Position numbers and translations under genes: made by a program. Shown piece after piece: positions 13,583-62,519 of a DNA stretch of 64,000 bases. Position 1 is the stretch's first letter; every line of letters begins with the position of its first letter. Source of the stretch: Marsupella aquatica (Eukaryota; Plantae; Marchantiophyta); the NCBI GenBank assembly GCA_973895155.1, contig OZ316896.1:18960754-19024753 (forward strand). Reading direction: 5' to 3'. The notes under the pieces were generated by a model. That model had not been told where the DNA came from. It worked only from the letters and a program-made list of their open reading frames with translations, and did no database searches.

Positions 13583-13584
13583 AG

Positions 13585-13596
13585 TGGTATCAGAGC
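13585..13596 (+). promoter_or_regulatory. primer-binding site (initiator tRNA-Met)
   Basis: TGGTATCAGAGC 2 nt after the 5' LTR. Confidence 0.9.
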
Positions 13597-26524: not shown

Positions 26525-26795
26525 AAGGGGCCATTAAGCTGTATTGTGATAGGAAGAGAGAAAATCAAAGTTGGTTGTGGTATTGGAACACTTAATATGT
26601 CGAAGTCAAAAATAAATTGTCAAAATTGTTGTTGCTCAGATAAAATCCTTAGATATGCGGCAGTACGCTGATTAGTACTAGCTTCCTTACAAGCATTAAA
26701 GCATACATAATGACAAGGCCCACAAATCAGCTCTAATGTTAGTTTGGGCAAGGCCCAGTGAAAATTGTTCCCTTGTTTGTTATTTATGAGACATA

Positions 26796-28074
26796 TAGCA
26801 TGCTCATCCTGGAACATGTTTTATTTTTTGTCTTGTAATGATCTGAAAGTAAATAAAATATGAGAGCATAGAAGTGTTGTTATATAAGTAAAGTGTCTGC
26901 CAAGAAAAGCACAGTGACCAAGAAAAGGTACAGTCAAACGATGCTACGATGTGTGCACTTAACTCAGGGTGCCTTATGAATCACAATCCTTTCAATAAAA
27001 ACCATAAACCAAGGAAAGAAAAACATGAGGAGAACTTAAGAGGCTATGCATTCATGTTCTTCACTATCATTTCTCTCACTCGTGGTGGTGGAGCCTTTGG
27101 TTTCATCTCTAAGAAAACACATACTGTGAAAGGGGGCTGCCAAAATAAGTTCAAAACACTCTAGAATACCTAAAACTAAAGGGGTAAAAATTAATTAAAA
27201 ATGTATAGAATACAAAGGCTGCCCCTTGATAAGCAGATTCAAATGAAAATACATGACACAAAAATCTGAATAAGACAAAATCTGAAATGTGCATTCACCA
27301 TATAGCAGCTTCAAAATCTGAGACAAAATGCTTTTCATTTGGATATTTGCTTCACTTGTTACCCACTCACCTGTCAACATAGGGTCTCACACGGAGCATT
27401 TCAGTATTCTTGGCTGTTTCTACTGTCACTCAACAACTTCTCCTGTGACCCTTAATTGGTTTCTCCGTGCATATTATGGACAAATGGACAGACAATATTG
27501 TCTAGAGCAGTCATGAAGCTACTATATGGTGATCCACCTTTCAGATTTTGTGTTCATTATTTTAATTTTAATGTGATAGGTGAATCATTTGTATTAATTT
27601 TATTTTGAATTAACTTTTGGACCCCTTTTAATTTTGGTAAACCTAAAGTATTTTGACTCTATCTCTCCCTTCATAAATGTTTATTCTTTCCTTTTCAATC
27701 ACTCCTTAGTGAATTATATTTTTTCTCACAAGAGTAGTAATGAGTTTGAACAGTGTGCACATTTGGTGTACTAAGTTCCCTTCTTGCTTTCCTTTACAAA
27801 ATTTATGGTTTTAATTGAGTTGCTTATCATTACTTACAAGCAAGTGAAAAAAATTGTACTTTATGTCCACAACTCTTTAATACCTTTGTACTTTCTTGGT
27901 CATAATGTGCTTTTCTTTGCATGTGTACTATGTCTCTCACTCTGAATTAACAAATATTAATTTTTTGACATATACTTTACATGTAGCTACTTCTTTTATC
28001 ATAAAATATATCAAATGAATTACATATCACTACAAGACAAAAAAAAAGAGGCATGTTCCAGGATGAGCATGCTA
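26796..28074. mobile_element. foldback/MITE-like element with TA target duplication
   Basis: Perfect 25-bp inverted repeat tatagcatgctcatcctggaacatg (26794-26818 / 28052-28076, including flanking TA). Degenerate arms extend inward to ~27313 and ~27514 (caccatatagcagcttca vs tgaagctactatatggtg). Confidence 0.75.
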
Positions 28075-28319
28075 TAATGGACGAAGGCACAGACAATGTT
28101 GTCTAGAGCAGTCACTTTGCTCAAGACTGATAATATTTTGTCATGCTTTCCTCGTAGCCATTGCTACAATTGGTATCAAGGTTAGGAATCTAGCTGGGGA
28201 ACCATATTAAGTTTGCTTACCCTCAAATGAATGGTCTGATGTAGTTATTCTTTTCTGGACACACTGGGGTTAGTTGTTGAAAAAATTCTTTTACATTGAT
28301 AAACGTAAGGTGGGTACGG

Positions 28320-35600: not shown

Positions 35601-36143
35601 GAGAGACTTAGGGTCGGGATGATTCACGAGAGCATTGCGTAACTGCACCGCTGCAACATTTGGAGCTGAAGAATTGAGGGCAAATGCAGTCAATCCTCCA
35701 ACAGCCCCAGCAGCAACAGCACCGCCGAGGCTAACGGCAGGAGTCCCCTTCACTGCGCGGCCCCCAGCATAGCCAGCAGCGAGAGCACCGGCCACAATGA
35801 CAGTGGAAGCCACATACCTAGTAGGAGCAGTCCAATCCTTCATGAACCTCTGGTAGACAGGCAAACTCTGCTCCGAACCGAAGATACTCTCCTGCGGCCT
35901 TCCCTGCTGCGCATCGCTGCTGCTCTGCTCCCCACTGCCCGCTGATGAGAGGCACACAATTCCCCCATCGCCACGCTTCATAATTCTCCTTCTCCCGAAT
36001 TTGGCTCCAGCGGAAGGAAAAGCCCGGGCACCTCTTAAACCCTTAAACCTAACCTGCTGCCACGGAAGCTCCGCCCCTGCCAAGGGCATGGATGGCAGCG
36101 CGCCCGGAGTGCACACACCCGCTAGTGCTTGGGCTGGCACCAT
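29685..36143 (-). CDS. TIC110: chloroplast inner-envelope translocon subunit TIC110 (~1032 aa, 15 exons)
   Basis: Exons (minus) 36143-35569, 35379-35320, 34861-34738, 34563-34495, 34216-34118, 33717-33651, 33391-33327, 33167-33073, 32866-32736, 32590-32490, 32267-32051, 31809-31655, 31356-31231, 31044-30076, 29930-29685 total 3099 nt in frame. Transit peptide and two TM helices, then TIC110 motifs IIKFKNALGLEDPDAA, FLLPWKRVFKVTDAQV, LLRLRVLLCIP, AEQAFRQQAQVILADGQL, SLNNLLACDKAVP. Confidence 0.96.
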
Positions 36144-36949
36144 GGCGGTGGATTTCTCTCCCGCTCGCTCGAGAAATCAGTCCAATCCAGTCGCGAACTT
36201 CCCAATTCCACTTCCAGAATCCCAGAATCGCCAAAGAGAACACGATGCCTCGACGAATATTTGCCCTTTCGTTGGACCACGAGAAACTCTCCACCTCTCT
36301 CGCATCACCGTCCGATACTTTTTGCTCCTGCAAATCACTCAACGCAAAAGGATAGTCTCGAGTTCTCAACCCTGTCTCTGCTTGCTTCGCTGTTGATTCC
36401 TCCTATCCACAGTTCCGGACGGGACGGGAGCTTCAGGGGTTTCGGGCCGAGTGCAAAAGCTTGCAGGAGGCAGAATGAGCATTGTTGGATTAGAATAATG
36501 GATTGAGTCTGGGGAATGACAAAGAGCCACATTGGTCGATCAAGGTTTTGGAGTTTCGTGCACGGTAACCCATCCAGGGGGGTTTGGTGGGCACACATGG
36601 GGGGATTGAAGGGCATCGTTATTGTAAGGTTTAAGTAGGGGTCTCATAAACAAAAAAAATCTGGCACTTGACTGGAGGTGACTGGAGGTTTGCAAGGCAG
36701 TCCGGAGCAAGGCAACAGGATACAAAATAATGGGGCAATTATTTTTTGGGGTATGGAAAAATGAGTAGCCTCATGATACGTTCAATAGTATTGTGTTTAC
36801 TGTGAAATCAGGGCCTTTTACAGTTGTCCCGGGTGTGATTGGTAGGTTCTCACAATCAGTGCCTGACCAGTCATGATTGTTATCCCGACCCTTAACACAC
36901 CCGGGTGCAGTCAAAGCAGAAAAATGGACATATTTGAGATGCTTTACTA

Positions 36950-38789: not shown

Positions 38790-39870
38790 CTAACATCAAC
38801 TACAAACTGTCCATCCTGCAAACGGTAGAGACCTCCATTGCGCCCAAAATTGTGCTGCATCTTACTCAACAGCTCCATTCTACATCGCCCTTCATTCAAA
38901 ACACGAGCCCAACCCTCATTCCAAGCAATTTTCATACTCATTCAGAGCTCATGCCAAATTTTAAATTGAATCCCCACACTCGAGATACATAGTTGTTCTT
39001 TTTCCAACAAACAATGAGCTTTCCAAAGCTGCCAACAAGTAATCCCTCGAGCAATGTTCCACAACTTCAACAGAAAGTCTCTACTAACGATAAGTGGAGA
39101 TCCCAAAAGAGCCTGAACAGGATCAATGTGGAAATGCAAAGCCCAGGATCCAACTGCCTGAAGGATCAATATAACTCTTTTTATCCAACTCCAAACACTC
39201 TGAGAATTGGGACACCACCATAGACAATGAAGTATGTCTTCATGAGCATGATTAACACATCTTGAGCACCACCATTCTTCTCCACTATGTACAAATGGAA
39301 TGATTACCCCAACCTCATCTCTGCGCATTGACCGTCTCCCAATATAGTGCTTAGTAGCAATAATTCTCTGTGCTACTTGCCATAAGAAAAAAATCACCTT
39401 CTCTTCCCAATAGGACTTCCAAATACTTCCCCAAATATAAGTATCCCGAGAAACAACACAAAGCTCCATCCTCCACTTACCAAGGTCAATAGTCTCCGAC
39501 AAATCTCTACGTTGCAGTTCAAGTTTTTGGAAACAAGCCGATGATCCCGCCAATGATGCATGAAAGAATTTATGACCACCTTTCCATTGAAAACTATCAA
39601 CAAGACCCAACGTAGAGCACGAAGGACCTTTTAATCCAATCCCGTATTTGTGAGTCACCCAATTCTTCATTCTCCCTGTGGTCATGTTGAATAGCAGAGC
39701 CCCAATCAGTGGTGTGCATTCAATTGTTGTAGGAACCCCATTATAGATGATGAATGACGAGAATGACCCAGGTCTAATCTCTCCCGACATCCAAATTTTT
39801 TGAAAGATACCATTTGTCACCGTAATTTCCTATACCATATTTCCTTCCTGCACCAGTACCTGGGATATGA
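38790..39870 (-). mobile_element. 5'-truncated L1-type LINE fragment (ORF2 C-terminus)
   Basis: ORF 38942-39820 carries the zf-RVT-like signature WGSIWK...KVIFFLWQV...WCSRC..HEDILHCLWWCPNSQSVW. Confidence 0.75.
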
Positions 39871-42060: not shown

Positions 42061-43412
42061 GGAATGGAGGTCTTGACAAGTTGTTGAGGGTATAAATGAC
42101 CTTGAGTTTAACGATCTTGTGGATCATCATGAGGCTATTGAGGCTGAGCTTGTTGTAGTGGCTAACAGGGGAATGTCATTGGATGAAAGAGAATTGTAGT
42201 TTTTCTGGAGAGGGAAGTGTTGACAAGAAGTGATTGTGATGATGATGATGTCTTGGAAGATAAAGAAGATGACTCTTGGGGCAGGAAGTACTGATTGTAG
42301 GATCTTTGGTGATACTATTTTCTTAATATGCAGTTTTGAATTGAAATGCATGATCAGTCTTGGGCAAAAGTCCTCAGAATGCCTATGAGGCACTAAGGAA
42401 TAAGAACATAGCTAGCAGCCAACAATGCTATACTTGAGCAGTTCATAGGAGGAGCTGCAACTGATTTCAAGTAATTATGTACTCTATCCCTTTATAGTTT
42501 TGAATTGATGCCTTGGCTTTATTACTAACTGGGATTTACTAGAATGCCACTATTTTGTGACCTAATTACTACCTTGCCACACTTTTCCTTCTATTTACCA
42601 GAATGCCGCTCTTTTCCATCTCGGGTTAAGGAAAGTTACTCGAGTTAACCCCTGAGAATCCTACGCCTCTAATTTCATTTGCAACCCGCATCGGAGGGCC
42701 GACGCTTCCCTCACGGTTAGTTTTGTTAGCCCTGAGTTCGCTCCACACAGGGGTGGGTCGGCTGCCCCCACTCTTCGCACTGCCGCTCCCTCTCTGACTG
42801 CCTTGGTCTCGCTACCATACCCCGATTGCGTGCTTCATTCAACGTTTCCCTCCTTGATTGTGCGCCTTTTACTCACTCCCGCACCCCAACTACGATTTCC
42901 CTCCCCAATTCCGCCATCGCCAGGAGCTCCAACGACCACACAACAACGCTCTGTCTAAGCAGCAACTATCACACAGACGTGCGGATACCAGTTGCGATCA
43001 CATGCAGGCTTGGTGTGCATTTGTTTTAGGGTTTATGCTCCTGTGACATGTTTCGCGTTGGAGAACCAGACAGGGTTTAATTTTTTTGAGTTCACTAGGC
43101 TAGAAGCCAGCTCGGCGTAAGCACGTACATTGCAAGGCAACGGCGATATTGGCTCCATTAGGAGATCTGAACAACAATAAATTATTGGTGAGTTCCTCTA
43201 CCCTACGAAGTTCTGCTGCAGGATAGAACGTTGCAAAGCTTGCTAATTTCAGAATTTCAGACTGAGCGGCGAATTTCAGAATTTCAATGACTTCATGCAT
43301 GTTGCAAATGGTCGTGCGAGTGATCTCGTAATGATCCAATGCAGTGATTGGGGCAGTGATGCAACTCAATATTAATTCTAAAACAATCTTGGTTTTGCAG
43401 AGGTGTGGGGAC

Positions 43413-44120
43413 ATGGCAATTGCTGAGAAGCTTGTGGCAGCTAAGGAAGCACTTGGTGGAGTGATCTGGGCTGCAGCTGTGTTGTTGTTTGAGGGTGTGT
43501 TTTGGTCTTTGTTAGGACTCCTGAGTGAACTCTTCCGGTTCTTACATGAGTTGCTTGAGAAAATCATTGCACTTGCCCATCCTCAGCCTACCACAATAGA
43601 GCCCACCAATGACCAATGGGATGCAATTCTTCAACCAGTGATTCAACCATCTATTGTGCTTCAGCCATCCGATGGCGGGTCAACTGGACATCTCCTGTCT
43701 GAGCCTCGGTCTGCTCCAAGGCTTTACCAGAACCAGCCACCTCAAGTCCCTGTTGTTCAATATGCAGACAAATTCCATACTAGGATGACTGAGATTGGAC
43801 TTCACCCAGTGAAGCAAGAACTGGACCGAGCCTCAGAATTGCCTCATTAATCTTGTAATCATGGAGTTCTACATTCTAGGAAGTGGTGGTATGCTGTGGC
43901 TAGGGGTCGGAACCCTGATCTATACGAATGTTGGGAGGAAACTTCGCTTCAAGTATCTGGTTATAGCGGTAACAAGCATAAAAGCTTCACTTATAGATTT
44001 GAAGCAGAACAATGGTTAAGCTTCCATATTCATCCATAGGGAATATCCTCAGGAATAGCCTTAGGAATAGGGTATGGCACCTGTACAAATTTGTATCCTC
44101 AACAATATTATCTGCAATGA
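43413..44120 (+). pseudogene. MULE accessory gene with C-terminal RNase H1 N-terminal / Cauli_VI-like hybrid-binding domain
   Basis: One reading frame from ATG 43413 (after acceptor ttttgcag) with in-frame TAA 43848 and TAG 44037. 43881-44018 encodes KWWYAVARGRNPDLYECWEETSLQVSGYSGNKHKSFTYRFEAEQWL, matching the YAV.xGR..G.Y..W.E...QV.G(F/Y).G..(Y/H)K.F....EA pattern. Confidence 0.75.
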
Positions 44121-44242
44121 AATTATATGAGAGCCACAGTGTGCAAGATATTACAGCGTGTACATCAAAGTTCTCTCCACATGAATTGGAGCTCTCATTC
44201 CATGTCAAAATGAATCCACAGTGCCATTGAGACACTTTGGGT

Positions 44243-46524
44243 CTACTTATCTTGTGACACACTTGCTAGCAATTGAGAATAGAATCCATTTTGAATACTA
44301 TCTACATCATTTGCTTGCGAAAATGTAACATCTACAACCTCTTGTGAATGCAAGAACAGTTCATCGTCTGACACATAGGTTTCCTTCCTTGCAGTGACTG
44401 CTTCATTATTGAACTCTTCTTCGTCCACCTCGGTATCAGAGTCTGACTTGTGTTCATCCTGGACATCTAACCTGCTACTAGAGCTATCATCAGTCTCATG
44501 GCCAGTCTCATCTTCCTCATTGTCTATGGAAGGCCCTGTGCCTTTACCTTGTGAGAGGAATGCATCACGGCCTGGGCACTTCCTCTTATCATGGCCGCCT
44601 TCTCCACAATGGCAGCATCGTCGCGGTCTACGCACAGGATCCTCCTCTGGAAACCTCATCCTCGCCTTCTCAGATGGTCGGCCCCGCTTCCTCCTAATCC
44701 ATGGTGGACCACACCATAAGTCTGGCTCTAAATCACTTTGCAATATGGCAGGTATCGAAATATTAGAGTATGTTTTCTGAAATGCAGCAACAAAGTAGAA
44801 AGGTGAAACGTAGTCAAAGTGTCTCTTCCGCAACCTGGTGCATGCCCGCCATGCATGCACACATGGTAACAAGGTATCCTGCCAATCCCCACAACTACAG
44901 TGCCACTCAGGTTCAAATTGAACTAAAAATTGTCTCCCTAGAAAATCAGTAACCCTACATTCAGTTTCTGATGAAGGATCAGCAATAAGAAGGGAAGCTT
45001 TCTCCTCTGTTTGCTTCAAAGTGCTCATAATGTTGGAGGGAATGGTGTGGTGAGAGACATTGCCAACTCTCTCTTTTCAAAGAACTCAGTGGTCATGAAA
45101 TAGTCCCACAGTCGGTTTGACTGCTTGAAGGCAACTTCCTCCCTTTGTGGTTTCAATGCTCTATTTAAACTTTCAGCTTGTTGGTTGGTCTCATGTCCCC
45201 ACCTGTCATCAATGGTTTGCAATATCAAATGTCATTCATAAACTCTAAAACCTGCCTCAAACACATCCATGATTGTGGAGATGCTCAAGACTAAAATCCC
45301 AAGAATGAAGGGCAACATACCTTCTCACTGGACAATAAGCTCTAGAGTAGTGCTTTGGATGTGCAGTCTTCTCAATGTACTCGGCAAGCTTTGCATTCTT
45401 CTCCCGAATTCGATCGAGTCTTCTTTTGAATTGGTCCGGAGTAGTTGCATATACCAAGGGCTCGAACTCCTTGCTTGCTTGCCTGTTGAAGTGTGTCCTG
45501 CAATTGTGATCAACAAATCATGAGAGAATCACAACCACAGAAGAAGTGAAGCTATAATTCAATTCAAGTTGTTGCACTAAGCTGTTACCTGCAATTATCT
45601 GCAAGATGCCATGAGCATAATGCATGAAAGCCTCTTGGGAAAACCTCTTGGACACCATCCAACAATCCTTTTTCTCGATCAGAAATGAACACAGTGTTAG
45701 GTCGTGCCAATGAAGGAATAGCATCTCTAATCAATCCCAAGAATCTTCGCCATTCGGTATGGTTCTCAGTCGGTACCATACAATAAGCTAACATCACAAT
45801 AGTGTTGTTGGCATCAAGTGCAGTTGCTATGAGCAAAATCTGAGGATATGCCGATCTGGTGTGAGTTCCATCAAAAGCCACCAACGGTCTACAGTGCTCA
45901 AATGCCAGCCTTGCAGCTCCTGGACAGACAAACAAAGAATGAAATCTACCGTCTGGTGCTGAGTATGAGACTGTGGCTGCCGGATCCCGCTGTAAAATGT
46001 GATGACAGTGAGGTGGAATCAAGTAGAAAGAGTCTTTCTCCCGTCCATCCAACTTCTCCAATGCTTTCTTCTTTGCAACCCATGCCGTATGGTACCTGAT
46101 GTCTGGATCGATGATCAAGTGCTCTGGCTGTATCCCGCAATGAAGAGGCCCTAGTCTGCCTATTTCTCATGACTATATCCATTATTTGTTGTGCCAAGCG
46201 GTCCGAGTTAGTATGCATTCGTCGTTTCCAGTGGTCAGCTGCCTCACAGGTGTGTTCAATGTGTGCTTTCATGATTGTTATTACTCCAGTAATTTTCTTT
46301 CTTATGGCTCGGATCCACCAATGGCATCTACTCTCACTATCAACAGAGATGTCATTCAATTTGCAATATGTCAAGCATCGTGTCTTATCTTTTTTATACG
46401 TTCTTATAATTCATTCAGTCTGCACACCATGGTCAACAACTAAGCTTTTCAGCTCCTCAAATGATTCAAATGTTTGTCCTTCCTTCAGCCGACTAGGCCA
46501 TTGAGAAGCACTCTGGCGATTCAT
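44243..46524 (-). pseudogene. MULE (MURA-like) transposase, spliced and disrupted
   Basis: N-terminal CHWWIRA...EHTC, catalytic core AFDGTH..ALDANN..FISDREKGL..CSWHL, ETNQQAESLN, SWIM finger CSCGDWQDTLLPCVHA, RGRP and zinc knuckle CCHCGEGGHDKRKC. Introns near 45588-45497 and 45320-45203; at least one stop and two frameshifts. Confidence 0.9.
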
Positions 46525-47379
46525 GATCAATTTCCCTACACATTTTCAATTCAATGAAAACTCAGCAGAACACCAACACCAAGGGAAATGAAGGGAAACC
46601 GGGAGGCATTCACGTACATTTCTAAATACTGCTTCAACATTCGGCTAGAATGAATCCCTACAACAAGAGATTTTGATAGAGTAGCATACCTGCCAAATGT
46701 TGGGACGGTAGTGCAGCACGAGGTGCAAATGAGGGCACTGATTCAAATAACGAGATGGGGCCATCTTCTCAAAGTGCGGGATGTGGCAAAGAAGGCTTCA
46801 GTCTCTCACTTCATATGGCTCCACTTTGTTTGGTCGCAGGCAAAATTGGGATGCGGCTGAAGTGCTCATTGTTGGACCAGAGCTAATCTTGAGCTCTGGC
46901 TATGGTGGTCGCCGAGGTGGCCGCACATGGTGACAACGGAGTTGCATCCAGGGCGTCAAATATAGCTGGGGAGAGAACGGCCGGTTTGAGGCAAACAGGG
47001 GAACATCAGAACTAAGTTATTGGCGATGGCGGAAATCGGGGAGGGAGATCGTAGTTGGGGGTGCGGGAGTGAGTAAAAGGCGCACAGTCAGGGAGGGAAA
47101 CGTTGAATGAAGCACATAGTCGGGGTATGGTAGCGAGACCAAGGCAGTCGGAGAGGGAGCGGCACTGCAAAGAGTGGGGCAGCCGACCCACCCCTATGTG
47201 GAGCAAACTCAGGGCTGACAAAACTAACCGTGAGGGAAGCGTCGGCCCTCCGATGCGGGTTGCAAATGAAATTAGAGGCGTAGGATTCTCAGGGGTTAAC
47301 TCGAGTAACTTTTTGTTAAACACTATTTCTTCCCTACGATTAACTCAACTTAACTCTTCTCCATTCATTCGCTTTTGTA

Positions 47380-48070
47380 TTAACCAATTAATCGTCCAAC
47401 AACAGGGTAACCTAGTAAATCATTTTCATACTCTGAACCTGTGATTTCCGCTGAATGTTCTTCGATGTCTACTTCTTCTTTCCACTTCCTGGGTACGATC
47501 GACTCAGTTAATACTAATCCTTCCCTGTATATAATTTGTATAAATCCACACCACTCACGATAAGTGAAAATACAAATTGGAATACTCTCTTCCCTCAACC
47601 GACGCGTGATTAGGTGCGAACCAATCGAACAGATCCACAATTCAATTGGCCTGAGCCTAATTAGTGAGGAATTCTTCCTATCCTCGTTGCTAGTATTCAT
47701 GCTTCCAGTGACTGTGATCTGATTAGATCCAATTGTCTCATTGATACTCCCACCCGAAGTTCGATCAACTACTTATGCTACGGAGTAGATCAAGAAAGGC
47801 TATTCGCAAGTAGAACGACAATTCAATGATTACTCCGTTATGTTGCAGGTGTATGACAATTAGATTGTCATTCTCGAAACACACACACTTCAGCCAGACT
47901 CCACTGCTTACGAGTTGTCTGTTAGTTTGATTCCATAAGGTGTTACTCCTCAACGTGTTCACTCTGAGTGAATTAATCCTCATTCATTCTCTCGCCGTCA
48001 ATTACCATTTCTCCATGTAGACTCTCTCAACAATGTACTCATCCAAGAACAATTCATCAGATTGTGCCAT
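47380..48070 (-). pseudogene. second, decayed intronless ORF of the inserted cassette (unknown product)
   Basis: ATG 48070 (MAQSDELFLDEYIVERVYMEKW) is in frame with ORF 47983-47765 across a TAA and a TGA; ORF 47700-47380 follows in another frame. No recognisable domain. Confidence 0.35.
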
Positions 48071-48386
48071 AATAATTGCTTTACTTCTCAACATTAAAAT
48101 TCTACTCACATCTGAGTAGGGAACACTTAAACAGATCTACTAATTATCTTAAGGGAAGTCTGCCTTCGCCTTTCAATCAGATTACCTATTGCAAAAGTGA
48201 CACCTGATCTATGCTCTTGCCTGCCTTAAATACTATCTTCCGGCAACATTATTGGTTTCCAACTGCCCGACTAGCAAAAATGGTTATCTAACTTACTAAT
48301 CAAACATAACTGTATAGCAGTTAATAAACTACTGTTTGCGGTTACTAATCCGTAGTTTCCGATTGGTATACTCTGTTCAACTGAGA

Positions 48387-48983
48387 CTACTGCATCGAAC
48401 ATCTCTGTAAGCGATGGGTGGTTGGAGCCGTGGTTTCTGAACTGCCGATGGTTAAGCTTCTCAATTCGGATGTCACATGATGGACATTTAATGGAACTTT
48501 CGGTTCACTAATGTTCCAAAAAACGATTACTCGTTCAGCGGCGATTAGCCTCCAGCAGTGACGTTGTCGTTGATCGAGTTCTCGTCCCAACGTCAGGTTC
48601 CACTTAGATGACATGATTCCCCTGCAAAATTCTTCAACCGCTTCTTGAGTAGTCAATTGTCGTTGGTAAGTTTCACCATTCATGCCAAAAAGCTGCTGCC
48701 CTGCCTCATTCCATACTCGGCAGTCCCCCTCCCTAAGGCGGATCATAAATCGGAACATGGGCTTCCCTTCTCCTACGAGCTTGCAAATATGAGTGCCTCG
48801 ATCCCTGCTGAAAACGTTCGATCGTTCTTCTCCCATTTGCCTTCGTTGTCTTGCTTTCACTCCTAGAGCGCAATCTCTGCCGTCTCCTAGCTTGGTATCG
48901 CATCCTTCATAGCAAAACCCTAGTCCGGTACTACTCCAAATAGCAAAAATTGTCGTGCCTTCTAATGTTAGTCTCCCCGCCAT
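48387..48983 (-). CDS. RPA70 C-terminal (Rep_fac-A_C)-like OB-fold protein, 198 aa
   Basis: Open frame with the DBD-C pattern in order: TTIFAI..FCYEGC, RDC, HIC..KPMFRFMIRLRE, VWNEAGQQLFGMNG, EEFCRGIMSSKWNLTL, CWRLIAAERV. Confidence 0.68.
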   Translation of the reverse strand: MAGRLTLEGTTIFAIWSSTGLGFCYEGCDTKLGDGRDCALGVKARQRRQMGEERSNVFSRDRGTHICKLVGEGKPMFRFMIRLREGDCRVWNEAGQQLFGMNGETYQRQLTTQEAVEEFCRGIMSSKWNLTLGRELDQRQRHCWRLIAAERVIVFWNISEPKVPLNVHHVTSELRSLTIGSSETTAPTTHRLQRCSMQ

Positions 48984-51900
48984 CTTACTAAGCTATTTCT
49001 TCCTGCCACTGATCCCCTTAAATACTTGATCTATTATCTTCCGCTTGATGTTTCTTCACTAATTCTACTTAATTATTTTTCTTGGTTTACACTTTCCTTA
49101 ACCCGAGACGGAAAAGAGTGGCATTCTGGTAAATAGAAGGAAAAGTGTGGCAAGGTAGTAATTAGGTCACAAAACAGTGGCATTCTAGTAAATCCCAGTT
49201 ATTACTAATGGTTCACAGTCATGACATTGTCAAGGTGATTTCAGTTTACAGGGTGAGGCAAGGGGCAAGCGTCTGTCTAAGCTGTCAAAGAAGATTGACC
49301 AGAATCAGCCTTCTCTACCAAAGCATAGGAGTTCCCAATTACTTGGTAGGCAGCTGGACAAACTCATGGAGAGTGACAACAGTGGGAGTGATGGGTCTGG
49401 AAATTCATCTAACACACACTATGAGGCAGGTTTAAGTGATGGCTTTGAATCATATGATATTCAAGAGCCAAGTAAGGTAGGAGAAGACTCATTGTCATTT
49501 TCTACTTCAAGTTCAATGCATTAATTTTCCAATTTCTGCATATGTTGATATGTTGCTAGTGTTACTAATTACTTGAATGTGCACACTGTTATCCTCAGGC
49601 TCCCTAAGAGTCAAGGCCTAAATATCTTGTGGATCCTAGGACAAATGAAGTGAGTTTATGTAAGTAATTCGTTACCTCACTTTTTGCACTTCTTTTTGAC
49701 TTGCTAAGTGATTCGCCGAGTTCAAAGATTCTCACATGTTAACATATTTGTTGCAGATTGTCACAAGTTACAGATTTGTTGCAGATTCTCACAAGTAATA
49801 GATTTGTTGTCGATTGTCACAAGCTACATTATGTTTGACTTGCTAACAGAATCTCTTTGGTTTTTTGTGGTAGTGACACCCTTGCCAAGAGCATCTACTT
49901 GTAATCTGGATGATGGAATTGTCATAGAAAGATCAGAACAGATACATATATGACAATCATCACTCATGGGGTCCATCAAGTAATACTTTTTATTTAGTGT
50001 ACAACAAGCATACACACACAAGTTGTCAAATTAGTATGAGAGTAGGAGAGTCATGATACTCAAGTGGTGTGCTCCTGTTGTTAGTGGTGGTGCCGGTGAA
50101 TGAGCTCGAGAGTGAGATGGTGAAGGCGCTGATAAACCTTCCAAATTATCCCGTGCCAAAATGAGGTTTTGTCCCCTTCATTTCATTGCCAACCTTTGGG
50201 ATCCTGTCTTCTGGTTATGAGCCTTTTGCTTGTTGGCAATGTGATATATAATATGGTGTAGATATTCAGTATAATTTATTAGGGACCAAAAGGGGTGCAA
50301 AATAACTGTGAATTCATGATGGATACATTTTTGCCTTGGATATCTCTAAGAAGTGCCAGAAAGGAAACTATAATCTTACTAATAATTTGCGAACGGAAGC
50401 TACTGCAAAGGTCTACGGGGTCTAGAGTGAAGCCTCTAGACCGTGACTCTACTGTAACTCACAAACACAGAATAAAAGATGAACCGAAACAACTAGCTAG
50501 GAACAGTTTTTTGTGCAAGTTACCTTTTCGACCTCATCTCTTTCCGTTCAAGGAACGGGTAGTCAAGGCTAGTAGCAAGAAATTTACATGGGCTGGGAAC
50601 ATTGATTGCAGATCATGCACATGTAAGCCCTGCCCAATTTCTTTCAGGTTGTTAATTGGACAAACTGGTGAGGGTTAGGGGATTTGATTTCTGAACTCAA
50701 TTGATGATTGAGAAGAACTAAGGTAGACAAACAGTGTAAGTTTCAAAATGTCCCAAATAGACTATCCTGGAAATTACATTTTTGTAATGAGCCCAAAATG
50801 ATAAGAACTCCACCTTTGGTACAGAGTTAGAGTTATCTCAGACCTTTGTTTAGACCTGTGTTGCAAGAGAAATAAGTGGATAATTGTGGACATAGGCTGA
50901 CTGCCCTTTCCTTCAAATTTAAATAGAGGTGAGAAAATTCAAGGCTGTTGTGGGGAAGAGTATATGTTGTTCAATTGGTTGCGAGTGAGGAAGGCTGGGA
51001 GTAAGGAGTACGGATGCTGTTAGAATTTTAAGCTAATAAGATTGCAGTTTTTCCAGTGACTGAGGGGTGTACAAATACTGTATCAAGTAATATGATTTTC
51101 CCTCACACTCCCTCTTAAACTTCAGGGGTACCCCCTGCCCCTGTATAAAAATAGTACAGGGCATTCTCATTGGCTCCTGAGTCAAAATTCATACTTTTAA
51201 AATACTATATACACTTTGGCATACAGTGTATTTGGGCCCTAGTTAATGTCAGAGGGAGTGACCGTACTCCCTACCCCTGGCCCATGGAACCTGGCCCTTA
51301 TTTAGAGACTCACCCCTGATCCCCAATCCCTGCATTCCACCCACACCCCCCATTTAGTTGTCTCCCAATCTCTGTTTCCACCCACACAAGCCAGCCCAAG
51401 ACTCATGGTCTATAGGTTTCATTTTAGATAGTAGGCTCTGGAGTGGGACTCTACATAGTAGGTTCAAGAGTAGGCTAAGGAGTAGGCTCACATAAAGATT
51501 ACTTAGTTACTTAGTTATATAATAAAAGAGTGAAAACCTGCAGGGGAACAAGGGCTCAACGTACTAGGGCCTCTTCACAACACCTTATTAGTCCATCCGT
51601 CAACCCCAAACTCACGTTGGAGTCTAAAATGGTGACATTGGAAAAGTTCTGTGAAACCTGGTTTTGGCCATTAAAGTGATTCGATCCTCCTTTGGATCCC
51701 TTCCTTAGGCTGCAAATGGAAGAACTGATGAGGCTCGAGCTGAGGCTGCCAAGTGGGCATTATGGGGAAGTTCGCTCTGCAAGCAAATCGACAGTCTTTC
51801 CATCTTCCAAATTTGTCGTTTCGATGCAAAAATTTCAACATGAGACATGGTCGAGGAATCAAATCGTGTTCCGTTGAGCGACGTTTCTCTGAGAACAACC

Positions 51901-54938: not shown

Positions 54939-56665
54939 AGGTGGATGAGAGAAGCAGAGTTGAAAGAAGGGGCAGGAGTTAATATCTGGCAGAATCTGGC
55001 AGATAATAGATGCAAGTATCAAGGGAAGAGAGTGTAAAACAAACATAAACTCATGTAAACTAAATGCCTTTCTTGATTTGTCGGTTTCTATTTCTTAGGG
55101 CACTTTGGAGCTCAATGCCCCAGTCAAGATCCAGATCATCTCTTTACAAAGATTCTCTTCAAAGTCTCCAAAAATTAGAAAAAATGAAAATCTCTCAGGT
55201 CTTTAAGTGTACTAAGTTCCTGTTTTTGGAGCATTATGGGCAATAATAGCCCGCTCAAAACTTGAGCTGAAGCTCTCATTTTTTGGGTCATCATTTCCCA
55301 ATAATGCCCTGCAAACAGCAGTTTATTGTATACAAATTTTTTATAATAGATCAGAGAATGCTTGTATTAATAGAAGCTTGTCTAAAAAAACATTCCTCCC
55401 AAGCCCTTTATATAAGGGGAGGATACCTTATTGAAATCAATGCCTAAGAGTAGATCGGCCTCAATTTATTTTAAACAATAAGGGGAAGAACAAAGCTGTA
55501 AGGAAGCTTTCCTAATATATTGGGTATAATAAGTCAAACAAGGGTTTTGTAAGTCAAACAAGGGTTTTGTTTCGCTCTCTTTCTAGAAACCAAATATACA
55601 CACTTTTTATATACAAAGGGACCAATCAGAGTACAAATGAACAAACAAAAGAGGGCCCAAGTGGACAAAACCAATCGAAAAAGAAGTGAGCAAAAGGGAA
55701 CCACTAAACACCAAGAAAGAGAAACTAAAAGTAAGAAATGAGCAATAGGGAACCCCTAAAAACCAAGAAAGAGAGACTAAAACTAACCCAAGCGGACCGA
55801 GGTGGATGAGAGAAGCAGAGTTGAAAGAAGGGGCAGGAGTTAATATCTGGCAGAATCTGGCAGATAATAGATGCAAGTATCAAGGGAAGAGAGTGTAAAA
55901 CAAACATAAACTCATGTAAACTAAATGCCTTTCTTGATTTGTCGGTTTCTATTTCTTAGGGCACTTTGGAGCTCAATGCCCCAGTCAAGATCCAGATCAT
56001 CTCTTTACAAAGATTCTCTTCAAAGTCTCCAAAAATTAGAAAAAATGAAAATCTCTCAGGTCTTTAAGTGTACTAAGTTCCTGTTTTTGGAGCATTATGG
56101 GCAATAATAGCCCGCTCAAAACTTGAGCTGAAGCTCTCATTTTTTGGGTCATCATTTCCCAATAATGCCCTGCAAACAGCAGTTTATTGTATACAAATTT
56201 TTTATAATAGATCAGAGAATGCTTGTATTAATAGAAGCTTGTCTAAAAAAACATTCCTCCCAAGCCCTTTATATAAGGGGAGGATACCTTATTGAAATCA
56301 ATGCCTAAGAGTAGATCGGCCTCAATTTATTTTAAACAATAAGGGGAAGAACAAAGCTGTAAGGAAGCTTTCCTAATATATTGGGTATAATAAGTCAAAC
56401 AAGGGTTTTGTAAGTCAAACAAGGGTTTTGTTTCGCTCTCTTTCTAGAAACCAAATATACACACTTTTTATATACAAAGGGACCAATCAGAGTACAAATG
56501 AACAAACAAAAGAGGGCCCAAGTGGACAAAACCAATCGAAAAAGAAGTGAGCAAAAGGGAACCACTAAACACCAAGAAAGAGAAACTAAAAGTAAGAAAT
56601 GAGCAATAGGGAACCCCTAAAAACCAAGAAAGAGAGACTAAAACTAACCCAAGCGGACCGAGGTG
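54939..56665. repeat. 861-bp apparently exact tandem duplication
   Basis: 54939-55799 equals 55800-56660 (identical ORFs at 55064 and 55925); AGGTG at all three junctions (54939, 55800, 56661). Confidence 0.95.
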
Positions 56666-56695: not shown

Positions 56696-59614
56696 CTACT
56701 GGTCCACATCAAGGGTCAAAACTAGATCGGCAAGTGGGATTGGAACATCCTCTAGGGGAGCTAGCCGCTGCGGAGGCACACTAGCACCCACTGTAAGAGA
56801 TCGACGATAGATGGCCCGAGCTTGAGCACGCTGCAAGGTGACTGAAATGCGTTGGCGAAAGTGCATGGTCAAAATAGAAAGCGGGGGTCCAGTGGGACCC
56901 ATGCGGCCATGAACATCCCGGGCAGCTTGCCGAAGAAGCCCATCAAACTGAGGATGAAGACGCCCAAATAGCTCCAGAGCAAGGGGGAGGAAGCTGTCGG
57001 ATGAAGCTCGTGCAGCATATTTGGCCTCCTTCGTTGTTGCCGCACGTGACGCTGCTGCCCCTGCCGTATTTGCCGCTGTCCCAATGATGTCTTGGCGCAA
57101 TGGGTTTGCCACCACTACATCTGCCAATGTACGTTGACCCTCACGGACCATGGTAAGATCCACCCGTAACCGTTGTGATGGAGGACCAGGTAACTCGAGT
57201 ACCACCTCCTGCCGCACGCATACCAAAGAGCCAGAGAGAACCTGAGCAGTCCCATCTCGCACAGCGTCGTGAACAATAATGGTTTCACCTCCCAAACTGC
57301 ACCGAAGAAGATGGACACCTATGGCATCACAAGGCTTCCCACAAGTGCAAGAAGGAGGTAAACCTGCAAGAAGTGGGTGGGGCAGCCCCATACGAAGACG
57401 CATGGCTGTGGAGAACTCCGTTGAAGACATCCACAAATGAGGAATGACTGGATTGGCCTGAAGCCATCCACCTGCGCCCTTCCCTCTGGAAGAAAGAATC
57501 CAAGCTCGGTCCGTGTCAGGTGCCTCGGAGAGGATGTTGGAAAGGGTGAAAGCGTGCATACGCCCAGCGAGGTCTGCCTGAAGACGAACGGGATCCAAGG
57601 ATAAAAACTCCTGAAAAGAAGGTAACGCGGCGCGAACGGGATCTGGTAATGAGGACCGCGCTGCGCGCAAATGAACCTGAAACGGGAGGGAACCCTCCTC
57701 TACCTCCATGAGAGATGAAAGTAAAAAAGGGCGATCCTCAATAAGAAAACGATCATCCAACAATGAGAAGGCGGCCGCCCACGCACCCAAAAAGGCCAAA
57801 GGTGCAAGGCTTCCAATGGAAGTAAGCCCAAAATCACCCTGCGAAATAGGAAGATTGAGTTGTCGATGAAGCCACGGAGATGAGAGCAACGTACCCGGCC
57901 CCAAAAGAGAGGCCAGGGTCTGACGAATGGAGACATCAAATGCTCGAAGATGGAGACAAAGATCCTTGGTAGGGGGATCCGTCCTAGCCAGATAAGACGC
58001 ACGAGGGTGGATGCACCTCAACAACATCCCAAATGCTGCCTAAGAATCTGCTAACTTAGGGAGCATAGGAGTAGAGGCTAAGGCAGCCTGTAGAGAGTCA
58101 GCGATGAAAGAGGAGCAAAAGGAGGCGGTACCGATTGGGGAGCCAAGGACCCGAAGACCATCGGCTGGACGTAAGAACCCTAGGGGAAGCGCAAGATCAG
58201 AGGGTAACCCAGCTGGACTCCATGCACGACTCTTCACAGGCTGAACTCGTAAACCGAGGCCCATCAAATGGGTGGAAAGAGTGGCGAGGGCAGAAGTAAC
58301 CGCGGCAGGAGGACCAATGATGTGGGTGTCATCTGAAAGGGAGGGGAAGATACACTGGGGTTGGGCCATGGCGGCTTCCCATAAAGCTGTAAAATGGGCA
58401 ATGGCAAAAAGGGGCCCACCCAAAGGGTCACCCTGACGAGTACCTTCTGCAGAGGAAAGAGTCGTATACACACTTGTAGAGGAGTGATGACTATAGAAGA
58501 GTGGGGCCTCGAGTCCATAAAAACAACGGACAAAGGGGATCAGGGACTGGATGTCTGGATCCGCTGCCCTCAAAGCACGAAAAATGGCTGCCCGAGAAAC
58601 CGTATTGAAAGCGTTAGAGACATCAACCTGGAGGACAACCCAATTAGGGTGGAGGCCCAAGGTAGCTCGAATACCCGCAATAACTGTCTCACAACCGCCA
58701 GGAATGCCAACTGCAAACTGATGTGGAGAGAGATGATCCGATAGTGCAAAGCGAAACTGCGAGGAAAGTGTGCGAGATACAAGCCGAAGAAAAACCTCCC
58801 CAATAGCAATTGGCCGAACACCCGGTGAAGACTTAGCCATGGCCAATAAACAAGAAGCACTCAAGAGTCGAGAGACGGGAGGAGGCAAACGACCGGCTGC
58901 AATACACTGGCAAAAGGAGAAGAAAATTGGAAAACCAAACTGAGGATCCTCAGGGGGGAATAAATCCTGAAAATGCTCAAAGACATAGCCCCTCCGGCCA
59001 CCAGCAGCGCAACGCGGGGCATGGAGGAAGGTATAGGTGAAGTGGTCCCTACTAAACTGAAGATCCTCCTCAGGCTCAAAATCCTCTACGAACAAAGGGA
59101 GCTGATCATGGGGCTGCGGATGGAGATCCTGAAGGGCCGACGAGGTGACCTCGCCAGGGGGGGCTGGTGTGGTGGGAGAAAGGGCCTGGACAGCCCGAAG
59201 ATATTCACCAGCCTGGGCTAAACGACAAGAGCGACGAAGACGTCTATGCTCAGGGGGATGAGAGTGGCGGGCTGGGTCAGACAAAGCACGGGCGATAAAA
59301 GACCGGGCGCGAAGAAAGTACTCTTCCTGAAGCTGCTCCCAATCTCCCCGCAAAAAATGATGGATACGAGAGGCAGTCTCACGGTGACCCACACGACCAC
59401 CATGACTAGGGAGGGTAAGAGACCACTGTGGAAAAAGCATCAGTAAAGACCAGTAGGAGACCTCCATAGGATGCGCCAAGATAAGCTGCATGAGTTGCAA
59501 CAAGGAGGATCGAACTAAAGGGCGCAACGCCAGAGGAATGTGGTTATAAAGGCAAGGTCTAATGTACCTGGATGGTAGGCTGGAAGGGGGTCTAGAGTGC
59601 GAACCCAACTCCAT
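56696..59614 (-). pseudogene. CRE-type RT-RLE polyprotein interrupted by one in-frame TAG at 58040-58042
   Basis: RT motifs GVRPIAIGEVFLRL, QFAVGIPGGCE, VDVSNAFN, GTRQGDPLG, SLSDDTHI, LRVLGSPIG; then RLRMGLP, CTCG..HLLRC..HDAVRD, RVDL..LADVVV..KEAKY (CCHC + PD-(D/E)xK). ORFs 58040-59614 and 56696-58027 are in the same frame. Confidence 0.88.
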
Positions 59615-60379
59615 GCCTGCTCGGGAGCCTCCAAGGAGGGAGGGGCAGAGCTAACCGGGTCAATAGGGGGCTGAGGCTGGGATTGTGCTTGCTGGCGACG
59701 ATGGCACCGGCCCCGCCCGCGATGATGAGGGAGGGAGATGCCAACCCATCCACAGTCAGGACAAGTATGCAGGGGACGCTCGTCTAGGGAGGGAGCAGGA
59801 AAGACTGGACAGGAGGTGGGGGTGGAACAGATGTGGACGAGGAGGCCGGAGGAGGATGATGAATGGGTGGAGAGGGAATGGGGTGGGGAGAGGAGCCAGG
59901 GCGACGATGGGGTGGGCAGTAGACGGGGGGGACAGGCAGAGCATCGGGCATGGGGTCATCACGAAGATGAGAGAGATCCAGTGAAGAAGAGCAAACACGA
60001 AGACGGCCACGAGGGGGAGGGGAGGACGGGGGAGAAGTGTGGGGTGGGGCTGGGCGCTTGCCCCGCGCCAACACTCTCAACGCAGACATGACAGGCCTCA
60101 ATCCGATAAAAGCAAAAACGCATCAAGAAACAACAAAAGGCCAATCGAGACAAGTGAAAAGAAAGGGGAGGCGATGGAGAGAGCCCATTGCATCAGGCCG
60201 AGAAACGGTGCCACCGCTAGCCTAGGAAACCGTTGAGCAGGTGCAGGAACAGTAAGGAACAAAGCTTAAGCGCCCGTCGAGCTGGGGAGTCGACGCGAGT
60301 GAAGATCCATCCTCTGGATTGAGCGTGCGGCTACAGCTCCCGAAGGCGACAACCAATTGGAGGAGAAAGCGATGGCCTA

Positions 60380-61201
60380 AAGCCGATGTGACTCGCTCAT
60401 ACGTTGACCCAAATCGAGTCGTGAAGACGCCAAGATCGCCAAACGCGCAGCCAATGTGAAAAACGGCGAAACCTAAATCTGACGTAACTTGCTCAATTGG
60501 TGACCGTTTGGGGCGCAATTCATATCGATCTTCACCGCCTCGCCACGATCTTTCCAAAGCTATCAAGAACACCCAGATCCAAAACTCCTGGAGAAAGTTA
60601 CGACCCAAATTGAGTCGCGAAATCGCCAAAATCGTCAAACGCGCAAAAAAAGTGAAAAAACGACGAAACCTAAATCCGATGTAACTCGATCATAGGGTGA
60701 CCGTTTGGGGCGCAAGTCGTATCGATCTTCACCGCCTCGCCAATATCTTTCCAAAGCCGTCAAGACTCCCAGATCCGAAACTCCTGGAGAAAGTTACGAC
60801 CCAAATTGAGTCGCGAAATCGCCCAAATCGCCAAACGCGCAGAAAAAGTGAAAAAACAGCAAAACTTAAATCCGATGTAACTCGCTCATACGGTAACCGT
60901 TTGGGGTGCAAGTCATATCGATCTTCACCGCCTCGCCAAGATCTTTCCAAAGCTGTCAAGAACTCCCAAATCCAAAACTCCCGGAGAAAGTTACGACCCA
61001 AATTGAGTCGCAAAATCGTCGAAATCGCCAAACGTGCAGAAAAAGTGAAAAAAACCGCGAGACTTAAATCCGATGTAATTTGCTCATACGGTGACCGTTT
61101 GGGGCGCAAGTCATATCGATCTTCACCGCCTCGCCAAGATCTTTCCAAAGCCGTCAAGAACTCCCAAATCCAAAACTCCCGCAGAAAGTTACGACCCAAA
61201 T
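60380..61201. repeat. ~197-bp tandem monomer array (4 copies plus a degenerate partial)
   Basis: atcgatcttcaccgcctcgcc at 60524, 60721, 60917 and 61115. Confidence 0.92.
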
Positions 61202-62519
61202 TCTTTCTAGCTGTGGGAGTCTAGTTCCACTCCATAAACTAGTGACGTGAAAGCAAGGAGTTCTACCTGTTAGCCAGGTCATGTCTAGTCTCTTCTCATT
61301 TAAATCAAATGACATATTCATGTCTATTCTTTGCCAAACCTTGAATAAATTGTTTCTTACTCTTTTCTAGCCACTTCAGCTTGATTCAGTACATAGTAAC
61401 TCCAAGATAGATGTTCAGTATAGCCTTGGACAATTTCTACCCTTTACAGGGAGAATTAGTTGGCATCAATTCCATTGCTTCATTTGAGGCATTTTTTATT
61501 AGACCAGACAGTGAGAAATATGACCTTTGGGTACGATTTTCAGAGTTTCCAAGTAACTTACTCTGGTGCTCAAATTCATGCACTAGTGGGATATCAAAAT
61601 TGTGAATTACTAAGCCAAAGTTGGGATATGCCGTATGAGACTCGCCAAATATTAAAGTATATCTCATAGGTAAAGAACACGCAATACTCAGCAACAAGCA
61701 TTCAAATGAGTTGTCTGACCGGTGTTTGCTTTGTTTTTACAAAATCACTCAATTGCCAGAACTATATTTCCTGACTAGTCTGCCACTACTGTAACCCATA
61801 TTGATAACTAAGGGTCAGATGGTGTTTTCTATTGCTCTTTGCTTATCAGGGCTTGCCACATATGTGACTTTACATCTCATTATATTTCACCATATTTGGG
61901 GGGTATTGAATCCAGCCGTGTGTGTACGTCAGGACTCGTGACGTTCAATTGTACTATGATTCTGACGTGCAGAGTGGATGCACCAGATGGACGGACAAGA
62001 CTTGCTTGAAGACATTAGCTCCAATCATGACCGCTTATCATTGTACGTTTGCTTAACATATATGTAGTAAGGGTCCTCCTTTACTCCTGAATGAAGTCTT
62101 GGAGCTCCCATAGGCCTCCCTGCTCCTGAGAGTAGGCAAATCCATCTAGTTATGGACCCTCATGAGAGGTCTCTTGCAAATTCCCTGCCACGAGGTTGCA
62201 CCACATCACCACAACCAGCCACAAACAGGAATAGTCCTACTTTTAACAATAACAAACGTGCACATTCATGTTTGTGGCAAAAACAACATAATTTTTGGGT
62301 GCCATGCAGTAAATATTAAATGTAAAAAAAACCAAAATACAAAGGAAGAGATGTCATTTAGTAAAATAAAATTACTAAAGTATTCTAATGTTTGTCAAAG
62401 ATATATCAGTGTTTTATATCAAAATGCTTGTATTTTCTAATCGTTTGCAAGTTTGAAAAAACTAATCGATAGAAATGTACATAATTACAATCCCTTTGGC
62501 TCCACATTGTAAAACTAAA

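What the first reader, a model, noticed from the sequence alone, without database searches (positions are those of the whole stretch)
47314..49091. A TG...CA-bounded 1.78-kb two-gene cassette inserted in the MULE right TIR
Seen: the ~390-bp right TIR is split into 47020-47313 and 49092-49198. The insert has short inverted ends (TGTTAAAC / GTTTACA) and a near 5-bp duplication (CTTTT/CTTTC; alternatively a perfect ACTTT with ends shifted by 1 nt). Established: TG..CA with a 4-6-bp TSD is the signature of retroviral-type DDE integrases (solo LTRs, Ginger, Polinton-like elements). Unusual: it holds an intact OB-fold ORF and a second decayed ORF, with no transposase or RT and no Helitron TC/CTRR-hairpin ends, although RPA-like genes in plants are typically Helitron cargo. 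Inference: an unclassified non-autonomous mobile cassette or a gene-bearing solo LTR.
Basis: partly seen in the sequence, partly recalled or inferred. Interest (0 to 1): 0.75.

Follow-up and report, generated by a model that had tools for sequence, protein, structure and literature searches.

The report
Likely solo LTR carrying RPA-like gene
A 1.78-kb piece of repeated DNA interrupts one end of a Mutator transposon in a plant that is probably a liverwort; it carries an unbroken gene predicted to fold like a single-stranded-DNA-binding domain of RPA, and it is most likely the leftover long terminal repeat of a retrotransposon, an unusual place for such a gene.

Summary
The insertion is real. 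The MULE right TIR carries 1,783 extra bases that the left TIR lacks. In four public runs the insert has about 29-49 times single-copy contig depth, against 2-6 times for the MULE core, so it is an independent repeat family. Five contigs of one run leave the reference just before 47314 with unrelated flanks, which supports TG as the left end. The right end and the TSD were seen only at this locus.

ORF1 (198 aa, intact) has 64 relatives. All 12 named ones among the 30 looked up are from liverworts. It folds as an RPA70C-type OB domain (pLDDT 86, Z 12) with a conserved C-C-H-C site. The second ORF has no support from homology.

The ends resemble those of a Copia LTR in the same window and fail the Helitron, Helentron, Replitron and GingerRoot tests. 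Best reading: a solo LTR whose U3 region carries an RPA-like gene (0.55). Main rival: a stand-alone non-autonomous element moved by an integrase-type enzyme (0.27). No parent element was found.

The parts
42519..42528 (.). MULE target-site duplication, left copy (10 bp)
   Evidence: contigs with the empty site join 42518 to 49199 with 10 shared letters (table 5)
42529..42922 (+). MULE left TIR, uninterrupted; serves as the empty-site control
44243..46410 (-). MULE transposase in broken frames (MULE domain, SWIM finger)
   Evidence: Pfam PF10551 E 3.8e-15 and PF04434 E 7.2e-5
47021..47313 (-). MULE right TIR, inner part, ending in the left copy of the duplication
47309..47313 (.). left copy of the 5-bp duplication under TG..CA ends (CTTTT; one mismatch to the right copy). 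Alternative: perfect ACTTT at 47308-47312
47314..49091 (-). inserted 1,778-bp multicopy element with TG...CA ends; likely a solo LTR (inferred), probably oriented on the minus strand (inferred)
47380..47772 (-). 130-codon open frame, distal piece of the doubtful ORF2; no homologue found
47765..48070 (-). proximal piece of the doubtful ORF2, with two in-frame stops and in another frame from the distal piece
48224..48232 (-). TATA-like motif (TATTTAAGG), second copy; possible start region of the element's transcript or of ORF2 (inferred)
48387..48983 (-). ORF1, 198 aa, intact; RPA70C-like OB fold at residues 1-153 with conserved C28/C38/H65/C67, then a low-confidence tail
49016..49024 (-). TATA-like motif (TATTTAAGG), about 33-41 bases upstream of the ORF1 ATG
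49092..49096 (.). right copy of the 5-bp duplication (CTTTC, same as the empty site)
49092..49198 (-). MULE right TIR, outer part
49199..49208 (.). MULE target-site duplication, right copy

Best explanation
The 1,778-bp segment is a repeated element inserted into the MULE right TIR with a 5-bp duplication, and it is most likely a solo LTR of a retrotransposon whose LTR carries an intact gene predicted to encode an RPA70C-like, probably zinc- and ssDNA-binding OB protein. SHOWN: the insertion; many diverged copies; depth far above the MULE's; a left end at TG with different flanks in other copies; the intact ORF; its family of relatives. PREDICTED: the fold. INFERRED mechanism: a retroviral-type integrase inserted the full element with a 5-bp staggered cut, after the MULE had landed. 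Recombination between the two LTRs then removed gag-pol and left one LTR. One copy of the duplication later took a C-to-T change. In this reading the LTR runs on the minus strand, so ORF1 starts 108 bases into U3 behind its own TATA-like box, and the second box near 48230 would mark the start of the genomic transcript, which makes 'ORF2' leader DNA or a relic. The OB protein would act as an accessory factor that coats single-stranded cDNA during reverse transcription or strand transfer (untested).
For: Ends TG...CA, a 5-bp duplication and only a 7-8-bp imperfect inverted repeat. The Copia element in the same window has the same pattern: LTRs 13237-13582 and 19752-20095, TGTTAG...CAACA, TSD TTTGC, PBS and PPT present. 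Neumann 2019 (PMC6317226, passages) gives 4-5-bp TSDs and LTRs up to about 5 kb. Summed contig depth in the insert is a median 29-49 times the single-copy baseline in 4 of 4 runs, against 1.8-5.5 times for the MULE core; up to 17 contigs per run carry one and the same difference (table 3). Five X2 contigs part from the reference just before 47314 with unrelated flanks (table 7). ORF1: pLDDT 85.8; Z 12.1, rmsd 6.4 over 139 residues to 8rk2_A and Z 11.8, rmsd 3.0 over 126 residues to 4gnx_C; Foldseek E down to 2.8e-5 against RPA chains. 5 of the 7 listed differences in ORF1 are synonymous third positions (p 0.045). In Riccia sorocarpa the OB unit is annotated both alone (P0035, P0052) and behind a coiled-coil/RING region (P0022, P0030, P0036, P0040, P0067-69), with a Met at its start in 5 of 8 long Riccia models. 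That would be expected if it sat at the start of an LTR behind a 3' extra ORF, but it fits other multi-gene elements too.
Against: No paired copy, gag-pol, PBS or PPT was shown for this family. None of the long relatives scanned has an RT, integrase or gag hit. The TG..CA reading needs a mismatch in the TSD, while a perfect 5-bp repeat gives TTG..TAC ends. The inverted repeat beyond TG..CA is marginal (171 of 2000). The two reviews read place extra ORFs in the internal region, not in the LTR, whereas RPA genes are documented cargo of Helitron-like elements. The left-end evidence is one table row from one run. The tool states that summed depth is not a copy number, and the runs were found with this stretch. 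The right end was not checked across copies.
Confidence: 0.55

Rival explanations
1. A stand-alone non-autonomous DNA element. The 1.78-kb unit moves as such, mobilised in trans by an unidentified integrase-like DDE transposase that recognises very short TG...CA ends, and it keeps the OB gene (and perhaps ORF2) as accessory genes.
For: It gives the same ends and duplication. A TATA-like motif is repeated upstream of both frames (21 of 1000 shuffles score as well; 2 of its 3 window copies lie in the insert). A gene starting 108 bases from the end suits a gene cassette. 58 of the 64 relatives are 250 aa or shorter. Calypogeia fissa holds three deep lineages (tree, quick method). No LTR interior was seen.
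Against: The integrase-type DNA transposons I read about have longer TIRs or other TSDs: GingerRoot 100-150-bp TIRs and a 6-bp TSD; IS3EU TA..TA and 6 bp; IS481EU known from parabasalids. No TIR longer than 7-8 bp and no inverted repeat of 11 bp or more lies inside the insert. No transposase-fused relative was found (one search is weak evidence).
Confidence: 0.27
2. A non-autonomous rolling-circle element (Helitron2/Helentron or Replitron type) carrying its RPA-like accessory gene, inserted without a TSD between two T's, with the 5-bp repeat being chance or part of its ends.
For: RPA and Ssb-like OB domains are known cargo of HLE1 and HLE2, and HLE2 occurs in land plants. Placements 47311..49093 and 47312..49094 are T|T insertions with no TSD. 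Replitrons occur in liverworts and have short direct terminal repeats.
Against: There is no TC start, CTRR end or A|T site. There is no 11-18-bp TIR, and the predicted folds at both ends are weak (-1.4 to -5.9 kcal/mol over 121 nt). The five X2 contigs diverge right before TG and do not share the T run. If both ACTTT copies belonged to the element, the empty site would lack them, but it has one.
Confidence: 0.1
3. An integral or captured part of this MULE family (Pack-MULE-like), amplified with it.
For: It lies inside the MULE. One X2 contig runs from the insert a few bases into the TIR side before diverging (table 7, place 49099), which could be a sister MULE carrying the insert.
Against: The left TIR is unbroken. 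The lowest insert bin is 2.1-4.8 times deeper than the highest MULE-core bin in all 4 runs. The inner TIR and adjoining MULE DNA are near single-copy depth. Other copies have unrelated left flanks.
Confidence: 0.04

Closest known systems
Solo LTRs of plant Ty3/gypsy or Ty1/copia retrotransposons
   Same: TG...CA ends, very short imperfect inverted ends, a 5-bp duplication, a size within the LTR range, many dispersed copies, TATA-like boxes. Same end pattern as the Copia LTR at 13237-13582.
   Different: It holds a complete, conserved protein gene. Published extra ORFs lie between the LTRs (PMC7264820, PMC6317226). No parent element was identified, and it has no sequence similarity to the window's Copia LTR.
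RPA70 C-terminal domain (DBD-C) and related Zn-OB domains (Teb1 OB-C, CTC1, POT1C)
   Same: Same predicted fold over residues 1-153; the top VIA rows are RPA70C chains and Teb1 OB-C, Z 9.6-12.1.
   Different: 9-15% identity. No Pfam Rep_fac-A_C hit for ORF1, and only 1 of 31 relatives reaches E 0.024, below the cut-off. The conserved putative metal site is C-x9-C-x26-H-x-C, not the four-Cys finger of RPA70C (recalled). It is a single stand-alone domain.
Helitron/Helentron RPA-like accessory genes
   Same: An RPA-type OB gene on a multicopy plant mobile element.
   Different: The ends, the insertion site and the duplication do not match HLE1 or HLE2.
GingerRoot/IS3EU, Ginger1/2, IS481EU integrase-type DNA transposons
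   Same: TG..CA-type ends and short TSDs; GingerRoot occurs in non-seed plants and carries gene fragments.
   Different: No long TIRs here; the duplication is 5 bp, not 6; no transposase.
MMTV sag and similar LTR-overlapping retroviral genes (recalled, no call)
   Same: A gene inside U3 with its own promoter would be the same layout.
   Different: Unrelated protein; plant retrotransposon context; layout only inferred here.

Membership tests
LTR retrotransposon (solo LTR) | 5'-TG ... CA-3' ends | tested here: met
   Present at 47314 and 49091. Left end backed by 5 X2 contigs. Right end seen at this locus only.
LTR retrotransposon (solo LTR) | 4-5-bp TSD that differs between insertions | tested here: inconclusive
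   Exactly 5 extra bases against the empty site, with 4 of 5 matching under TG..CA ends. Paired flanks of other copies were not obtained.
LTR retrotransposon (solo LTR) | short imperfect terminal inverted repeat | tested here: inconclusive
   7-8 bp with one gap; 27 of 2000 random pairs and 171 of 2000 TG..CA pairs score as well. Comparable to the window's Copia LTR.
LTR retrotransposon (solo LTR) | same sequence as paired direct repeats around PBS, gag-pol and PPT elsewhere in the genome | not testable with these tools
   No genome is held for this window; no second copy in the window.
LTR retrotransposon (solo LTR) | U3-R-U5 transcription start and poly(A) site inside the unit | not testable with these tools
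   Needs stranded RNA reads; only TATA-like motifs were seen.
Helitron (HLE1) | 5' TC, 3' hairpin plus CTRR, insertion between A and T | tested here: not met
   None of the possible end placements fits; definition from PMC11417382 passages.
Helitron2/Helentron (HLE2) | insertion between T and T without TSD | tested here: inconclusive
   Possible at this locus, but other copies diverge right before TG.
Helitron2/Helentron (HLE2) | 11-18-bp (sub)terminal inverted repeats and a 3' stem-loop | tested here: not met
   No inverted repeat of 11 bp or more in the insert; only weak folds at the ends.
Replitron | short direct repeat at both termini as part of the element | tested here: not met
   The only direct repeat at the junctions is also present once in the empty site, and the left flanks of other copies differ. 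Definition from PMC10288648.
Replitron | Y1 HUH Rep gene or a partner sharing the ends | not testable with these tools
   No genome to search; no such frame recognised in the insert.
GingerRoot/IS3EU | 100-150-bp TIRs and 6-bp TSD | tested here: not met
   definition from PMC6839031 passages.
Pack-MULE / integral MULE part | occurs only inside the MULE, at no more than MULE copy level | tested here: not met
   Depth and left flanks; unbroken left TIR.
RPA70C (Rep_fac-A_C) | OB fold with a metal-binding insertion | tested here: met
   Predicted model matches RPA70C chains; four conserved Cys/His. Metal binding itself is untested.
RPA70C (Rep_fac-A_C) | Pfam PF08646 score above the curated cut-off | tested here: not met
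   No hit for ORF1; best relative 14.9 bits against a cut-off of 28.5.
RPA70C (Rep_fac-A_C) | ssDNA binding and trimer formation with RPA32/RPA14 | not tested
   Inferred from fold only.

The most novel reading that the evidence does not exclude
The unit is not an LTR relic but a member of an unclassified, liverwort-wide kind of mobile element that has neither long TIRs nor LTRs. It would be integrated by a retroviral-type integrase supplied in trans and would keep its own Zn-OB single-stranded-DNA-binding gene, pointing to a single-stranded DNA step coupled to integrase-type insertion. The milder novel reading, an old retrotransposon lineage with an RPA-like gene inside its LTR, is the best explanation above (0.55; interest about 0.6).
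Probability: 0.18. Interest if true: 0.8.

Novelty: new variant of a known kind. Interest (0 to 1): 0.5.

Why it matters
RPA-like genes on plant transposons are described as Helitron-type cargo. Here an uncatalogued RPA70C-like family (64 clusters at 50% identity, named members from two distant liverwort genera, several lineages in one genome) sits on an element with integrase-type ends. If it is an LTR, it would be a plant LTR that encodes a conserved accessory protein with a clear predicted biochemical role. Most extra ORFs of plant LTR elements have no assigned function, so this one would be directly testable. If it is not an LTR, it marks an unclassified transposon group in liverworts. Either way these ORFs are annotated as host 'hypothetical proteins' in Riccia and Calypogeia and may be mobile-element genes.

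Tried and rejected
No genome is held for this window, so no genome-wide BLAST was possible.

Word-based protein searches: none for ORF1 at near lengths; none for the alignment at 518-2000 aa (weak, since it also missed known long relatives). The single-sequence fold was unusable (pLDDT 37). PDB sequence searches gave nothing real.

Contig collections: the metagenome scan with ORF1 returned 2 loci that are chance matches; the family profile hits neither, and L001 is bacterial by its ORFs. Viral contigs gave nothing for ORF1 and one weak 33-residue match for P0079 that I did not follow. Phage tblastn gave one chance hit. The viral fold library gave nothing at E 0.001 or better.

Rfam: none. No tandem array inside the insert.

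Atlas: no usable feature hit for P0004, and its model was too poor to use. The look-up of the Riccia N-terminal domain did not complete. No RNA holder listed. Earlier scan notes: nothing in 7 look-ups.

Literature: no paper holds all of liverwort+Helitron+RPA+transposon. None joins 'retrotransposon' with four phrasings of an ORF in the LTR. The listings show no description of this family. These searches cover open-licence papers only.

Rejected: integral MULE part; canonical Helitron; GingerRoot; ORF2 as an established gene.
Full report
OBSERVATION. The window holds a MULE at 42529-49198 with a 10-bp TSD and a broken transposase (PF10551 E 3.8e-15, SWIM). Its left TIR is unbroken. The right TIR aligns to it on both sides of a 1,783-bp block. 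The TIRs match at 377 of 393 sites, and 15 of the 16 differences are transitions. The block is 1,778 bp plus five duplicated bases. A perfect ACTTT repeat puts the ends at 47313..49090; TG...CA ends at 47314..49091 need one C-to-T change in the left copy. Placements with shorter or no duplication are also formally possible, including two T|T sites. The terminal inverted repeat is 7-8 bp with a gap; 27 of 2000 random pairs and 171 of 2000 TG..CA pairs do as well.

COPY STATUS. No genome is held. Six runs were listed and four laid on 42300-49500 (contigs only, 2 studies, one run may be the source sample). Using the three lowest MULE-internal bins as baseline, median summed depth over the seven insert bins is 31, 29, 49 and 39 times baseline, against 3.8, 2.3, 1.8 and 5.5 for the 14 MULE-core bins. 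The lowest insert bin exceeds the highest MULE-core bin 2.1- to 4.8-fold. The tool warns that this is not a copy number and that the runs were chosen with this stretch. Up to 17 contigs per run share single differences, and several joints skip 40-400 bases inside the insert, so diverged and deleted copies exist. Five X2 contigs carry loose letters before 47314, with agreement 0.5 (about what unrelated flanks would give) and median length 30. If the assembly word is 31 letters, that length marks a branch exactly at the TG (inference). The other three runs show no such row among the 24 of 609 displayed. One X2 contig continues to 49099 and then has 14 loose letters that are purine-rich on the minus strand. 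This could be a PPT junction or a sister MULE, and it was not resolved. The right end and paired TSDs were not checked across copies.

ORF1. 48983-48387 (minus), 198 aa, no Pfam, PHROGs or PDB sequence hit. An exhaustive HMMER search found 64 relatives at E 0.001 or better, 22 at 1e-10 or better. Of 30 looked up, 12 carry an organism: 5 Calypogeia fissa and 7 Riccia sorocarpa; 18 are unnamed. The host of the window is therefore probably a liverwort (inference; a Tic110 gene shows it is a plant). A 54-row alignment gave a model with pLDDT 85.8, residues 1-155 confident. Best matches are RPA70 C-terminal domains: Z 12.1 (rmsd 6.4, 139 aligned), Z 11.8 (rmsd 3.0, 126 aligned), Teb1 OB-C Z 11.2; Foldseek E 2.8e-5 to 1.8e-4 for the top five rows. 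C28, C38, H65 and C67 are kept in 44 of 49, 48 of 51, 51 of 53 and 48 of 53 rows and are intact here. Five of the seven listed differences in ORF1 are synonymous (p 0.045; only 40 of about 1,140 differences were listed). 58 of 64 relatives are 250 aa or shorter. A quick tree of 62 rows (rows covering under 95 profile positions left out; the careful search did not finish) places Calypogeia proteins at three distant positions and the Riccia ones in one clade, a pattern usual for mobile-element families. Long Riccia models join the OB unit behind an unknown domain, a coiled coil and a RING finger. None of the long models scanned shows an RT, integrase, helicase or transposase hit.

ORF2. Two pieces in different frames, the first with two stops. 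No hit in Pfam, PHROGs or PDB; it was not searched in the large protein collections. 32 of 1000 shuffles give a 130-codon frame. 4 of 7 listed differences are synonymous, which is not significant. A TATA-like motif precedes both ORFs (21 of 1000 shuffles). ORF2 is possible but not established.

CLASSIFICATION. HLE1 needs TC...CTRR and an A|T site; HLE2 needs 11-18-bp TIRs and a stem-loop (PMC11417382 and PMC4067079, passages). Neither is met. Replitrons carry direct terminal repeats as part of the element (PMC10288648, parts 1-4 of 7 read, figures not seen); the repeat here is present once in the empty site. GingerRoot has 100-150-bp TIRs and a 6-bp TSD (PMC6839031, passages). IS3EU and IS481EU differ too (PMC10045372, passages). 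LTRs have TG...CA ends, 4-5-bp TSDs and reach about 5 kb (PMC6317226, passages), and the Copia element at 13237-20095 shows equally short inverted ends with a 5-bp TSD. A solo LTR is thus the best fit to the ends. The oddity is the gene: the review read places extra ORFs between the LTRs and finds their function mostly unknown (PMC7264820, parts 1-2 of 3). The Riccia genome paper gives only class totals (PMC11735767, passages). Supplements were not read; Additional file 4 of PMC6317226 (domains in extra ORFs) and the Replitron datasets may bear on novelty. Other papers were seen as search listings only.

MECHANISM. Shown: insertion, multicopy state, independence from the MULE, intact ORF1 and its family. 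Predicted: RPA70C-like fold and metal site. Inferred: integrase-made 5-bp duplication, reduction to a solo LTR, ORF1 in U3 with its own promoter, and a role in protecting single-stranded cDNA. Odds: solo LTR 0.55, stand-alone integrase-type element 0.27, rolling-circle derivative 0.10, MULE part 0.04, other 0.04.

VERDICT. A real and independent insertion carrying an uncatalogued RPA70C-like gene family whose named members are from liverworts. New variant of a known kind; interest 0.5. One look at the flanks and interior of other copies in an assembly would settle the class.

Noticed in passing
window 13237-20095: Full-length Copia element with broken pol frames: 346/344-bp LTRs about 96-98% alike, TSD TTTGC, PBS TGGTATCAGAGC and a PPT. 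Used as an internal control for LTR ends.
   Followed up: partly
window 30034-36176 (-): Multi-exon Tic110 chloroplast envelope transporter gene (Pfam PF16940 E 7.9e-25 on the first exon).
   Followed up: partly
window 56696-61224: Two long minus-strand frames (536 and 447 aa) with reverse-transcriptase-like and endonuclease-like motifs (judged by eye and recall), preceded by about four 197-bp tandem repeats at 60372-61202; probably a non-LTR retrotransposon.
   Followed up: no
window 38942-39829 (-): 295-codon frame with a weak zf-RVT hit (E 0.0035), probably the tail of a LINE.
   Followed up: no
window 5762-7236: Foldback element with nested inverted arms and 85-bp internal repeats.
   Followed up: no
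window 54939-56647: Duplication with 861-bp spacing and 100% identity over 300 bases; recent tandem duplication or assembly effect.
   Followed up: no
window 26794-28076: 1.28-kb segment bounded by 36-bp inverted repeats, MITE-like.
   Followed up: no
window 42300-42518 and 49209-49500: The MULE itself sits in a very deep repeat; contigs with the empty site join 42518 to 49199 at depth 2305 in X1. The locus is a three-level nest.
   Followed up: partly
window 43335-43850 (+): 171-codon frame inside the MULE, opposite to the transposase, with no significant Pfam hit; this part is close to single-copy depth.
   Followed up: no
proteins P0036, P0040, P0067-P0069: Riccia sorocarpa multicopy gene models share an N-terminal domain of about 130 residues with no Pfam hit, then a coiled coil and a RING finger, upstream of the OB unit; identifying this domain may name the parent element.
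   Followed up: partly
window 47323-47333 and 48993-49003: An 11-bp direct repeat lies near both ends of the insert, and both terminal regions are 70% purine on the minus strand; significance not tested.
   Followed up: no
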